Source: Sminthopsis crassicaudata (lineage: Eukaryota). From it: 64,000 nucleotides of DNA. Below the pieces are notes generated by a model that had not been told where the DNA came from, searched no databases, and saw only the letters and a list, made by a program, of their open reading frames with translations. The stretch lies in contig NC_133620.1 in the NCBI RefSeq assembly GCF_048593235.1, positions 413,011,261-413,075,260 on the forward strand, in the 5' to 3' direction. A program made the position numbers and the translations under genes. Numbering within the stretch: position 1 is the first letter of the stretch; each line of letters starts with the position of its first letter. Below, piece after piece: positions 2-5,096 of this stretch.

Positions 2-619
2 AAAATCCTAGTTTCAGCCACACAAAATCCTATAGAAATCCAGCCTTATCAACGCTTGGCCCAAGCCCTACCACTCCCCCTAGACACCACTTACCTGGCA
101 GTCAAAACACAAAGGGAGAAATCCACACCCGGGTCTTCGGACCTCTATTGGGTCCAGACTCTATCCCAGGAAAGACCCACCTTAACACTTAAATTACAAG
201 GCAAACCCTTTTTAGGCCTAATTGACTCAGGAGCTGATGCTACAGTCATTTCCGCCACCTATTGGCCCACTACCTGGCCCTTGCAGCCTTCACTCACACA
301 TCTACAAGGCATAGGACAAACCTGTAATACCATGGAATCCTCCCAGCTGTTAAACTGGGAAGACGCAGAGGGAAACAAAGGAACAGTCCGTCCTTTTGTA
401 GTTCCAAATCTCCATGTTAACCTGTGGGGAAGAGATATTCTCTCGCAAATGGGAATCATTATGTGCAGCCCCAATTCCATTATCACAGAACAAATGTAAA
501 GCCAGGGATTCCTCCCTCGTCAGGGGCTAGGGAAAAATAATCAAGGTATCACTCAGCCTTTACAGATACAACCACATCCCGACCGCACTGGCCTTGGTTT
601 TCAAAACCATTTTTCATAA
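2..619 (+). pseudogene. pro: Betaretroviral pro: dUTPase C-terminus, aspartic protease and G-patch; premature TAA at 497-499
   Basis: Frame +2 reads RLAQALPLP...PGSSDLYWVQ (dUTPase end), LIDSGADATVI (active site) and NLWGRDILSQMG. After the stop it continues SQGFLPRQGLGKNNQG...RTGLGF (G-patch) to TAA 617-619. Confidence 0.93.
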
Positions 620-633
620 GGGCCACTGGTCCT
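607..633 (+). promoter_or_regulatory. Putative pro-pol -1 ribosomal frameshift site (C CAT TTT) with downstream hairpin
   Basis: pro (frame +2) overlaps pol (frame +1) here. The heptamer at 607-613 has the same non-canonical pattern as MMTV G GAU UUA. AGGGCC-ACT-GGTCCT at 619-633 can form a 6-bp stem. Confidence 0.55.
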
Positions 634-3222
634 CCCAGCCTACAGGCGGATAAAATCACATGGAAATCTGATACTGCCGTCTGGATCGACCAGTGGCCCC
701 TTCCGAAAGAAAAACTAGAGGCTGCCATAACTTTAATTCAACAACAATTAACTGCAGGTCACATAGAACCCTCTAACTCACCATGGAACACCCCAATTTT
801 TGTCATCAAAAAGAAATCAGGCTCATGGAGATTACTCCATGATCTGAGAGCAGTAAATAAAACCATGGTCCCTATGGGAGCCCTACAACCAGGCTTACCC
901 ACCCCTATAGCAATTCCTGCAGGTTTTCATAAGATTGTTATAGATCTCAAAGACTGCTTTTTTTCTATTCCTTTACACCCTGAGGACTCCAAAAGGTTTG
1001 CTTTCACTATCCCTATCACTAATTGCATAGGCCCCTCCCCCACCCCCAACCCCTCCACCCCCCCCTTCCAATGGAAGGTCCTCCCTCAGGGCATGACCAA
1101 CCGTCCCACACTTTGTCAGAAATATGTTGCCCAAACAATAGACCCCTTCAGAATGCGCTACCCCCACCTTTATGTAATCCACTATATGGATGATATACTC
1201 ATTGCTGGACCCTCTGAACATGAACTGTCTAAAATCACACGTCAATTGATAATAGCCTTAAAAAACAGAGGGTTGCTTATCTCCCCAGAAAAGGTTCAAT
1301 TCACCTCCCCTCATTTTTTTCTTGGGTTTGAACTACATTTTAATCACGTAATAACTCAGAAAACCCAGATACGTACCACTCACCTTCACACCTTAAATGA
1401 TTTCCAAAAATTATTGGGAGACATTAATTGGTTATGCCCCTACTTAAAATTAACTACAGGAGATCTTAAACCCCTCTTTGATATCCTAAAAGGAGATTCA
1501 GACCCAACCTCACCACGCACTATAACCGTAGAGGGCGAAACTGCTCTACAAAAAGTTAACCAGGCAATTTCCACTCAAAAAATTGGATATTATGACCCAA
1601 AGAGAAAATTATGGCTCCTTATCTTTTCTACAACCTTTTCTCCCACTGGACTATTATGGCAAGACATGCCCCTATATTGGATTCACAGCCCAGCAACACC
1701 TAATAAAGTACTCTCCACCTACCCCCTCCTTATAGCAGATCTCTTACAAGAAGGAAGGACCCTGTCTGTCAAACTTTTTGGAAAAGACCCTGACCACATT
1801 GTCTGTCCATATACTAGTACAGAGTTATTATCTCAGCTTCAACAAAAGAATGATGCTTGGTCTATCGCTACCATTTCCTAACAAGGGACTATCGATAATC
1901 AATATCCCACAGATAAACTTATAAAATTTCTTATGGAAATCCCAGTTACCTTCCCACGTGTTACTAAAACAACCCCTCTAAAACAGGCTCACCTAATTTT
2001 TACTGACGGATCCTCTTCAGGCACGGCTGCGGTTACAGTTGATGCGGTCCTCACCTCATTCCATACACCTTATGTGTCAGCCCAACTTGTAGAATTAGCG
2101 GCCATTCTTTGGGTATTCAAAAATGTCCCCAGCTCGATGAACATTTACACTGACAGTGCCTATATTGCCAACTCCATTCCACTGCTTGAGACAGTCCCTT
2201 ATATTAGACCCTCTACCAACGCCTCTCCCATGTTTTCCCAAATACAAAAACTTATCCTAGAGAGAGATTATCCCTTCTTTATCTGTCATATCAGAGCACA
2301 CTCTGATCTCCCCGGCCCCTTAACAGAAGGTAATAATGTAGTAGATCTTGCCTCCAGACAAGCCTTCCTAGCCACAGTTCTAAACGCCTCCCCTGTGGAT
2401 GCCGCCACTAAAGCACATGAATTACACCATCTTAATGCTCATACCTTGTGCCAACAATACAGGATTACTAGAGAACAAGCCAGACAAATAGTTAAACAAT
2501 GCCCGGGATGTCTAGTACTTCTACCCGAGCCACACTTAGGAGTCAATCCCCGCGGTCTTATCCCTGGGGAACTCTGGCAGATGGATGTTACCCACTTTAC
2601 ACCATTTGGCAAGCTTAAATACATTCATGTTTCCATTGATACCTTTAGTGGCTTCCTCTTTGCTACCTTACAAACAGGAGAAGCTACCAAACATGTTATC
2701 AGCCATATCATGGCCTCTCTGGTCACTGCACCTAAACCTAAAATCCTTAAAACAGATAATGGCCCCGGATACACTAGCTCTTCCTTTAAACAATTCTGCG
2801 CACACATGGGTATTAAACACATCACTGGCATCCCATACAACCCTCAAGGTCAAGGTATTGTTGAAAGAGCTCATCAGACACTGAAAAGAATGATTTCAAA
2901 ATTACAATCTGGTCCTGAGATCCTCTACTCACGAGCTGGTAATCACAAAACATTGCTAAATCATGCACTCTTTGTGCTCAATTATTTAATCCTAGATGAC
3001 AATGGAAAATCTGCGGCAGACCGCCTCTGGCACCCCTCCACAACAAATAATTATGCTCAAGTGAAATGGAGGGACCCCCTTACCAACCAATGGTTTGGTC
3101 CAGACCCTGTCCTGATTTGGGGAAAAGGACACGCATGTGTCTATGACACTCAAGCCCAGAACGCCAGGTGGCTACCAGCACGCCTGATCAAAACCCATAA
3201 CTCACCCACGGAAAAACCCTGA
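610..3222 (+). pseudogene. pol: Betaretroviral pol (RT, RNase H, integrase); one in-frame premature TAA at 1879-1881
   Basis: Frame +1: VWIDQWPL, SPWNTPIFVIKKKSGSWRLLHDLRAVN, IDLKDCFFSIPL, WKVLPQGM, HYMDDIL, FQKLLGDINWL; RNase H IFTDGSS and HIRAHS; integrase H-H-C-C, WQMDVTH, KTDNGPGY, GIVERAHQTLK. Confidence 0.96.
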
Positions 3223-3224
3223 GA

Positions 3225-3380
3225 AACTTCATCTCTGTTTTCTTTCAGATAAGAACTCCACAGAAGATTAAGTAAGCTGGGACGCGATTCATTCTACATC
3301 TGGCAATAAAGTGTCCCTGACATCACCGCCCTGGTAACATAATTTCCCCCCCCTCTCCCCGCCAATCTTTCCTCTTTAGG
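3225..3380 (+). promoter_or_regulatory. env splice acceptor region: AG at 3247-3248 and 3378-3379, donor-like GTAAGC at 3272
   Basis: Polypyrimidine tracts tctctgttttctttcag and tttccccccctctccccgccaatctttcctctttag lie just upstream of the env ATG at 3417. Confidence 0.6.
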
Positions 3381-3416
3381 AATCCTCCCCTCCCACGTCC
3401 AGTGCTACTCTACAAC

Positions 3417-5096
3417 ATGCTTTCCCTTATCCTCTATTTCCATACTCGATCAGACTATAGCCTCCCCATACCAAATATTCAATTATACCTGGGTAGTTCA
3501 AAACTCTTGGGGCGATGTAGCCTGGAGTACTTCTAATCTACAAAGCACGGTACCCTGGCCCGATCTAACCCCAGATTTATGCCTTTTGGCCAGGGGAGCA
3601 TCTGGCTGGGACTCTCAAGATTATCATGGCCACACACCCCCCAATCAATGCTTCAACGGGAACTGGGGATGTATGTCCCCTTGGCATCGCTCTGTCACCC
3701 GACAGATGCCCTTCTATGTCTGCCCAGGTAGTAAACACAGGGACAGATCATTAACCTACAAATGTGGAGGCTCTGAGGAGTTCTTTTGTGCTTCCTGGGG
3801 CTGTGAAACCACAGGAGATACATACTGGAAATCAACTTCCTCATAGGATTACATAACAGTCAAGGCTGACTACATAGATAGGTTCGAGGATGGAACTCCT
3901 AAAACAAACCCCGATTGCGATACGTGGTGTCACCCACTACGGATAAAATTTACTAATCCAGGGAGACAATCTATACAATGGGAGAGAGGCCTCACATGGG
4001 GTCTACGCCTATATAAAGACCACTATGATAATGGCTTACTATTCACCATAAAACTTCTAAAAACTATCCCTACACCTAAGAATCATGCTGCCATTGGACC
4101 CAATTCAGAACTACTACCCAACTATAAGTCAAACCCACAACAACAAGAACCTCTGGCTCCCAGGCCCTCTCTACCCTATACCCCATTTATACTGACTCCT
4201 TCCTTGTTTCGCCCCACAATCCCTCCTGGTCCTCCCTCATCTGTCAATCATCTTGACAATAGTAAATGCTTCCATACAGACTCTGCATCAACTTAACATT
4301 TCCTTTCTGCAGGAATGTTGGGTCTGTTATTCTTCAAATCCCCCTTTTTATGAAGGTCTGGCACATTTTGGCAACCCTATATATACAAACGACACCTCCT
4401 CCCTTAGATGGGGAACTGAAGAACAACAGGGATTGACACTTACCAAAATAACAGGCATAGGAACCTGTATTTTAGGCTCGGATATGCTTCCCCCCTGGCA
4501 GCTTGAAGAGGTTTGTAATCTTACCATTGTAATCTCCTCGAACTCCACTTACGCATCTGCCCCTAACGATTCCTATTTTGCTTGCTCTTCTGGTCTCACC
4601 ACCTTCACAGTAACCAATCGATTCCTCCAAAGTAAAGATTACTGCTTATGTGCTGCTCTAAAAGAAGAGTGTTGCTTCTACACTGACAAACTTGGCTTAG
4701 TAGAAAAGTTTACAAAAGGTTAGAGACAGTCTAGAAAAGAGAAAAAAAGAGAGAGAACAACAGGAAGCATGGTACCAGAATTGGTTCTCCACCTCTCCAT
4801 GGCTATCAACTCTCCTCCCTAGCCTCCTTGGGCCACTCATAGGCCTTCTTCTACTAATCTCTTTCGGCCCTTGGGCCTTTAATAAACTAACAGTCTTTAT
4901 TAAGTCACAAGTAGATGCAGCAATCTCCAAGAAAAGTCAAGTCTTCTACCACCGCCTGTCGGACCGTGACCATACCGAAGATAAGGAAACAAGATTTTCA
5001 GGAGAACCGTTGCGATTTCATGAACAACTATTAAAGAGACCTTGGTACCAGCGGGTGGGGGATAGACTGTGCCCCTCCATTTTACAAAAATCTTAA
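3417..5096 (+). pseudogene. env: Gammaretrovirus-type env, disrupted: frameshifts near 3441, 4252 and 4706, stop at 3844-3846, internal deletion at 4645/4646
   Basis: SU: SPYQIFNYTW, WPDLTPDLCLLA, FYVCPG, CGGSEEFFCASWGCETTGDTYWK, TWGLRLY, proline-rich region, CWVC (CXXC). TM: LCAALKEECC (CX6CC), anchor PWLSTLLPSLLGPLIGLLLLISFGPW, YHRL. Confidence 0.93.

What the first reader, a model, noticed from the sequence alone, without database searches (positions are those of the whole stretch)
610..5096. Beta-pol / MLV-like gamma-env chimeric retrovirus in a marsupial
Seen: pro-pol is betaretroviral (dUTPase, G-patch, -1 frameshift, YMDD, short-R LTR). The env SU has the MLV/GALV/KoRV-type N-terminal receptor-binding domain (SPxQxxNxTW, PDLCxLA, FYVCPG, WGCETTGxxYWK..SS(W)D), a proline-rich region, CXXC and CX6CC. 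Established: type-D betaretroviruses (MPMV, SMRV, possum TvERV-D) also carry gamma-type env, but of the RD114/D-type group. Inference: this may be an independent envelope capture from an MLV-clade gammaretrovirus circulating in marsupials.
Basis: partly seen in the sequence, partly recalled or inferred. Interest (0 to 1): 0.7.

Follow-up and report, generated by a model that had tools for sequence, protein, structure and literature searches.

The report
Decayed hybrid retrovirus, known marsupial clade
This is a broken fossil retrovirus that joins betaretrovirus enzymes to a mouse-leukaemia-type envelope, a combination already published for these marsupials; the envelope likely arrived already attached to a betaretrovirus, and related copies carry an unannotated tiny gene in front of it that is predicted to make a membrane protein.

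Summary
The chimera is real and not a mis-assembly: paired LTRs, a 6-bp target duplication, seven sister loci and contigs from two other studies carry the same pol-env junction. It is not new. Harding et al. 2024 (PMC11334065) described this architecture as MEBrv 1 and already called its type-C env an independent capture. The window holds a decayed copy of a sister sublineage: RT 81-82%, IN 86% and TM 84-87% identical to the reference lineage, with its own LTR. The proposed donor, a marsupial MLV-clade gammaretrovirus, was not found. No gamma pol lay beside this env in 39 loci (34 beta, 5 without pol). The TM nests with rodent, shrew, bat and pangolin ERV envs, outside MLV/GALV/KoRV. Four of those env clusters share contig lengths with related beta pol clusters. 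The capture therefore likely predates dasyurids, and the env cassette has since moved between beta backbones, including one only 53% alike in RT. Side finding: relatives carry an unannotated 34-36-codon transmembrane ORF between the env splice acceptor and env (dN/dS 0.12). The window keeps only its remnant.

The parts
1..619 (+). pro: dUTPase tail, aspartic protease (167-457), G-patch (500-598); premature stop at 497-499
   Evidence: Pfam; ORFs; sister copies read on to 619
541..3222 (+). betaretroviral pol (RT with YMDD 1183-1194, RNase H, integrase), -1 frame to pro; stop at 1879-1881; in-frame 21-nt insertion near 1042
3205..3248 (+). conserved motif at the pol stop and predicted env splice acceptor (AG 3247-3248); shared by all backbones that carry this env, likely the 5' edge of the env cassette
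   Evidence: splicing inferred, no spliced read seen
3337..3405 (+). decayed remnant of a small transmembrane ORF that is open in related families (no start codon, hydrophobic part deleted in this family)
   Evidence: spacer alignment; all 8 family-A loci lack an ATG here
3417..4645 (+). env signal peptide and SU: MLV/FeLV-type RBD, proline-rich region, CWVC 4316-4327; frameshifts near 3435 and 4244, stop 3844-3846, small in-frame deletion near 3872
4646..5096 (+). remaining TM after the ~340-nt deletion: CX6CC 4649-4675, membrane-spanning segment, long cytoplasmic tail; frameshift near 4708
5715..5945 (+). three AAGACA-containing repeats (5772, 5828, 5931), candidate CTE-like export element
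   Evidence: 3 matches against 0.62 expected, all in this stretch; motif named in PMC4330393; fold not better than shuffles, z +0.8
5956..5974 (+). polypurine tract
   Evidence: sequence
5975..6317 (+). 3' LTR (about 100 nt deleted in U3 relative to the 432-nt 5' LTR); 9 substitutions in 330 aligned nt to the 5' LTR
6318..6323 (+). target-site duplication TATACT
   Evidence: same hexamer precedes the 5' LTR

Best explanation
This is a decayed endogenous provirus with betaretroviral gag-pro-pol and a gamma-type envelope bearing an MLV-type receptor-binding domain, a sister sublineage of the published MEBrv 1 clade, whose envelope was likely captured long ago and entered marsupials already joined to a betaretrovirus. 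As a virus it would have made Pro and Pol by two -1 frameshifts, primed on a lysine tRNA, made Env from a singly spliced RNA (acceptor at 3248) and likely exported unspliced RNA through a CTE-like element (all inferred from family knowledge). It spread by reinfection a few million years ago (rough; rate recalled) and this copy then lost pro, pol and env function (shown). The env cassette begins in the last codons of integrase and has likely been passed between beta backbones and shuffled internally by template switching (inferred from mosaic identities).
For: Membership: loci in this genome match the published MEBrv 1 record letter for letter by eye over about 450 nt around the pol-env junction. 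Against that lineage the window has RT 81-82% and IN 86%, and its family has TM 84-87%; both fall in one TM clade (99/95) and one RT clade (98). Origin: dasyurid TMs form a clade (99/94) inside a clade (100/99) with Rattus, Apodemus, Cricetulus, Suncus, Pteropus and pangolin-cluster envs, apart from MLV/GALV/KoRV. 4 of 80 env-by-pol cluster pairs share contig lengths (5, 4, 2 and 1 lengths), and all four pols are beta pols 63-76% identical in RT to the window and in its RT clade. Of 39 further loci with this env, 34 have a beta pol, 5 no pol, 0 a gamma pol. An Antechinus gene model fuses beta Gag, beta Pol and this Env. A second backbone (RT 53%, IN 38%) carries the same env and the same pol-end motif.
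Against: The RBD tree is unresolved and cetacean gamma envs are as close in RBD (45-46%) as the rodent group (41-49%); the Kogia model has a gamma pol, so a separate RBD swap is open. AU tests do not reject the dasyurid TMs as sister to RDR-type TMs (p 0.45 and 0.12) or to resident class I TMs (p 0.08), all long branches. Genome searches scored only 144 of 174 and 150 of 1248 candidates. The gamma pol probe hit nothing, not even locus L108 that has gamma integrase motifs, so it had no positive control; the count rests on positive beta hits. The LTR does not match the MEBrv 1 reference LTR.
Confidence: 0.72

Rival explanations
1. The envelope was captured inside Australia from a gammaretrovirus infecting marsupials (first reader; close to the reading in PMC11334065).
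For: Dasyurid TMs are monophyletic. The paper places the MEBrv 1 env with FeLV/GALV-type viruses and argues for recombination within Australia. Searches were capped.
Against: No gamma carrier in 39 loci. Resident class I TMs are only 41-49% identical and fall outside. The paper's MEGrv 1 Env begins with an unrelated sequence. GALV/KoRV and MLV sisterhood rejected. Eutherian relatives appear beta-borne.
Confidence: 0.12
2. TM and SU C-terminus are old beta-borne parts, but the MLV-type RBD was swapped in later from a gammaretrovirus.
For: RBD tree has no resolved backbone. RBD and SU-C identities disagree among families (A to B: 82% and 52-57%; A to D: 54% and 69-71%), so swaps inside env occur.
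Against: The rodent, shrew and pangolin relatives have the same RBD type with the same motifs, so no extra donor is needed.
Confidence: 0.12
3. Assembly chimera of two loci.
For: None found; repeats can collapse in assemblies.
Against: Target duplication and paired LTRs, seven sister loci, bridging contigs in runs of two studies, same structure in print.
Confidence: 0.01

Closest known systems
MEBrv 1, marsupial endogenous betaretrovirus 1 (Harding et al. 2024, PMC11334065; record scERV5476)
   Same: Beta gag-pro-pol with type-C-like gamma env, about 9.6 kb, long pol-env spacer and 3' region, same env lineage (60 of 62 residues alike in the TM end, compared by eye), same RT clade.
   Different: Own LTR (no BLAST match to the reference LTR), different primer site (Lys3-type against Lys1,2-type; assignment recalled), RBD only 54% alike, RT-RH 76% nt, older (LTRs 1.1-2.7% apart against 0-0.9%), small ORF decayed.
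Type-D betaretroviruses with RDR env (MPMV/SRV, SMRV, TvERV, MEBrv 2)
   Same: Class II pol with dUTPase and G-patch, gamma-type TM with CX6CC, short LTR, CTE-like repeats; RT 62-63% to SRV-4 and SRV-1.
   Different: No SDGGG motif; MLV-type RBD, which the RDR-motif loci of this genome lack; TM only 32-46% to those loci.
Other beta/type-C env recombinants: PyERV, pangolin ERV-Beta.a-Mpen, shrew and guinea-pig IAP with gamma env (PMC3758190, PMC12584738)
   Same: Class II backbone with a non-RDR gamma env. PyERV TM lies near the base of this clade; Suncus and pangolin-cluster envs lie inside it.
   Different: Different hosts and backbones. Whether the Suncus and pangolin records are those published elements was not tested.
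HIV-1 vpu-env bicistronic arrangement (PMC3185809), for the small ORF of related families
   Same: A short ORF with one predicted membrane helix placed between the env splice acceptor and the env start.
   Different: 34-36 codons, almost no cytoplasmic tail, Cys cluster and PCP end, no Pfam or sequence match to Vpu, optional among sublineages. An analogy of layout only.

Membership tests
MEBrv 1 | gag/pol groups with the MEBrv 1 lineage among type-D-like betaretroviruses | tested here: met
   RT clade with reference-like loci, support 98; RT 81-82%, IN 86%
MEBrv 1 | env of type-C gamma kind, not D-type | tested here: met
MEBrv 1 | env of the same lineage as the reference record | tested here: met
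   TM 84-87%, one clade 99/95; by-eye match to the supplement
MEBrv 1 | length about 9.5 kb with LTRs of about 450 nt | tested here: met
   sister copies 9.64-9.73 kb (one 10.3 kb with an insertion), LTRs 441-447 nt; this copy 9.2 kb after deletions
MEBrv 1 reference subfamily (strict sense) | LTR sequence and primer site of the reference record | tested here: not met
   no LTR match; different PBS; filed as sister sublineage, not as the reference subfamily
MEBrv 1 | pol closest to TvERV (75% in the paper) | not tested
   no named TvERV sequence was returned
RD114/D-type (RDR) env group | SDGGG-type motif in SU (motif from PMC12584738) | tested here: not met
   absent in three family-A loci incl. 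the window; present in six other loci of the genome
RD114/D-type (RDR) env group | TM inside the RDR clade | tested here: not met
   separated by a 100/97 branch; sisterhood, not membership, left open by AU p 0.45 and 0.12; only in-genome RDR-motif loci were available as references
MLV/GALV/KoRV env clade | MLV-type RBD | tested here: met
MLV/GALV/KoRV env clade | TM groups with MLV, GALV or KoRV | tested here: not met
   TM 49-54%; AU p 9e-8 and 3e-4
gamma-type Env | CXXC in SU, ISD and CX6CC in TM | tested here: met
   CWVC and CX6CC in the window; ISD deleted here, present in a sister copy
gamma-type Env | use of an SLC-family receptor | not testable with these tools
   no data

The most novel reading that the evidence does not exclude
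A widespread, unnamed lineage of betaretroviruses carries a portable env cassette that includes a real accessory gene: a 34-36-residue palmitoylated membrane microprotein translated ahead of Env from a bicistronic mRNA, a Vpu-like arrangement in supposedly simple retroviruses, traded between distant beta backbones and lost in some sublineages, including the one in this window.
Probability: 0.4. Interest if true: 0.68.

Novelty: new member of a known kind. Interest (0 to 1): 0.36.

Why it matters
As flagged, little: the architecture and the independent-capture claim are in print. Two by-products matter more to a specialist. First, the envelope's origin shifts from a GALV-like virus in Australia to an older beta-borne lineage shared with rodents, shrews, bats and pangolins, which changes how this clade likely reached marsupials. 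Second, an unannotated small membrane ORF under purifying selection sits in front of env in relatives, including the published reference record; if translated it would be a new accessory gene in betaretroviruses.

Tried and rejected
Resident gamma donor: 20 RBD hits, 20 TM hits and 18 distant TM loci gave none; one partial 60% TM hit was not followed. Second backbone as MEBrv 3 or 5: their RT motifs in the supplement differ; MEBrv 4 has no translation there and was not compared. RBD tree: unresolved, bootstrap not settled. Small ORF outside this genome: one hit among 1.84 billion proteins, a repetitive unrelated sequence; no Pfam match above cut-off; the Atlas gave no answer; a genome pattern was too loose, 5649 matches against 3672 for the control. 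Short ORFs are often not called, so these blanks say little. CTE fold: z +0.8; Rfam gave only a sub-threshold retroviral element in RT. Expression and splicing: no RNA holder on record, contigs showed no joint; no evidence either way. Earlier findings of the scan: three look-ups, nothing. Baillie et al. 2004 on rodent betaretrovirus groups was not held and may already describe the rodent side of this env clade.
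Full report
Observation. The window opens inside a provirus. Pfam finds protease, RT, RT thumb, RNase H, three integrase domains and four TLV_coat pieces, plus dUTPase and G-patch. The RT has YMDD and its named database relatives are SRV-4, SRV-1 and prosimian retrovirus 1. The SU N-terminus matches solved FeLV and MLV receptor-binding domains at E 1e-16 or better. The 5' LTR and gag lie upstream of the window; the element is 9.2 kb, with the duplication TATACT at both ends. 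It is dead: stops in gag, pro and pol, and in env three frameshifts, a stop and a deletion of about 340 nt that removes the fusion machinery. Its LTRs differ at 9 of 330 positions; six sister copies differ by 1.1-2.0%. At a recalled rate of 2-3 per billion sites per year that is roughly 2-7 million years.

Not an artefact. Seven other loci match the pol-env junction at 95-96%; three of them are one duplicated insertion. Of four runs laid, two from different studies have one contig spanning pol end to RBD, and a third has a contig crossing the deletion in the window's form.

Already described. PMC11334065 (I read parts 1-4 of 7 of the text, supplement parts 1-2 of 12 and two supplement searches; figures not seen) defines MEBrv 1: gag and pol nearest TvERV, env nearest MLV at 37.6%, 9.5 kb, LTR 453 nt, and states that its env groups with type-C viruses and comes from a capture distinct from the D-type one. 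Loci in this genome match its record by eye around the junction, so they served as the reference. The window's family is a sister: RT 81-82%, IN 86%, TM 84-87%, SU-C 69-71%, RBD 54%, no LTR match. The genome's eight contigs and this match make a dasyurid host very probable (inference).

Where the envelope comes from. In TM trees of 71 and 65 rows (best single BLAST segments of at least 110 or 120 residues; one to a few loci per family kept, near-copies and some long rows dropped) the dasyurid rows form a clade (99/94) inside a clade (100/99) with Rattus, Apodemus, Cricetulus, Suncus, Pteropus and a pangolin cluster. These are 58-76% identical in TM, against 49-54% for MLV, Fv4, MDEV, GALV and KoRV. 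AU tests on reduced sets reject sisterhood with GALV/KoRV, MLV and opossum Env3 but not with the long-branched RDR-type or resident class I rows. RDR membership fails on motif and domain grounds. The RBD tree is unresolved, and cetacean gamma envs are as close there as the rodent group. In the genome, 39 further loci with this env gave 34 beta pols, 5 without pol and no gamma pol; the gamma probe had no positive control, and the searches scored only part of their candidates. Outside it, 4 of 80 pairs of env and pol clusters share contig lengths, and the four pols are beta pols in the window's RT clade. This is circumstantial, since I could not read that DNA, but it is the pattern expected if env and beta pol entered marsupials together. 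PMC3758190, PMC12584738, PMC10536682, PMC9967133, PMC3621094, PMC9825726 and PMC11341202 (passages only) show that beta backbones with non-RDR gamma envs are known in pythons, shrews, guinea pigs and pangolins; I saw no passage naming this env clade.

How the cassette moves. All backbones, including one with IN only 38% alike, share a motif at the pol stop and the acceptor after it. Between that backbone and an MEBrv 1-like locus, identity rises from 30-50% to 64-84% in the last integrase codons and spacer, then falls in SU. Synonymous divergence there is 0.56 over the whole small ORF (0.30 over its last 18 codons) against about 0.8 in RT and TM, which suggests a more recent transfer of that piece. 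The boundary thus maps to about window 3190-3205. Discordant RBD and SU-C identities among families point to swaps within env as well. Template switching in co-packaged genomes is the standard mechanism (PMC3758190); here it is inferred.

The small ORF. Between acceptor and env ATG, the reference lineage (13 of 13 loci examined), the second backbone's main family (5 of 6 open, one with a stop) and one more locus carry a 34-36-codon ORF with one hydrophobic helix, a Cys cluster and a PCP end; two further loci hold broken versions. dN/dS is 0.12 in its frame and above 1 in the other two. It is absent from several sublineages, where env follows the acceptor directly, and decayed in all eight family-A loci. 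The published record does not annotate it. Two literature searches and one search of earlier findings found no description; the library lacks most subscription journals. No homologue was found elsewhere. The layout recalls vpu-env (PMC3185809, passages); translation and function are untested.

Other elements. Three AAGACA repeats before the polypurine tract resemble the CTE motif named in PMC4330393 (passages), but the fold is no better than shuffles, so the CTE reading is a lead.

Verdict. A real chimera and a new, decayed member of a published clade; the flagged novelty is in print and the proposed marsupial gamma donor is unsupported. The added value lies in the likely older, beta-borne origin of the envelope and in the small ORF of its relatives.

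Noticed in passing
L092:6839-6940 (+), L104:3055-3156 (-), L074:1412-1519 (+); remnant at window 3337-3405: Small ORF of 34-36 codons (hydrophobic helix, Cys cluster, PCP end) between the env acceptor and env ATG. dN/dS 0.12, p 1e-5, 15 of 23 differences at third positions between two backbones. It is present but not annotated in the published MEBrv 1 record and survives in copies whose env is deleted.
   Followed up: partly
L092, L094, L095, L098, L102, L103, L106, L127, L133: A second, long-branched class II backbone (RT 52-53%, IN 37-39% to the window where full length) carries the same env lineage; it does not match the MEBrv 3 or 5 RT motifs. Possibly an undescribed ninth clade; some copies have near-identical LTRs.
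   Followed up: partly
L040-L041 (G000:C2:41343000-41357000): One fetched stretch holds frames of the second backbone followed by a family-B integrase and env: a nested insertion or a recombinant.
   Followed up: no
L024-L025, L032-L035 (C7, 86.3-86.7 Mb): Three family-A copies share the same flanks, so they are one insertion copied by segmental duplication; the eight junction matches are six independent insertions.
   Followed up: yes
G000:C7:47.9-49.3 Mb (L105 is one): A cluster of about ten older related proviral env matches, probably an amplified array.
   Followed up: no
L046-L049, L052-L053 and similar hits: Many MEBrv 1 reference-type copies have identical LTRs and internal env deletions, suggesting recent spread of env-less forms.
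   Followed up: partly
P0043 and P0349 (UGO47158.1, UGO47157.1): Consecutive accessions: a beta pol of the cluster paired with this env clade appears to carry a different gamma env (TM 54%), a further env swap in the same beta group.
   Followed up: no
P0130 cluster (BCW03412.1, BDB04027.1): Wallaby ERV pols are close relatives (RT 70%); their env was not examined.
   Followed up: no
window 5345-5371 and 5434-5460: A 27-nt direct repeat (93%) in the long env-to-LTR region.
   Followed up: no
L110-L115: Six loci with an RDR-type env motif, the two tested (L110, L115) behind a beta integrase: the classical D-type combination also exists in this genome.
   Followed up: partly
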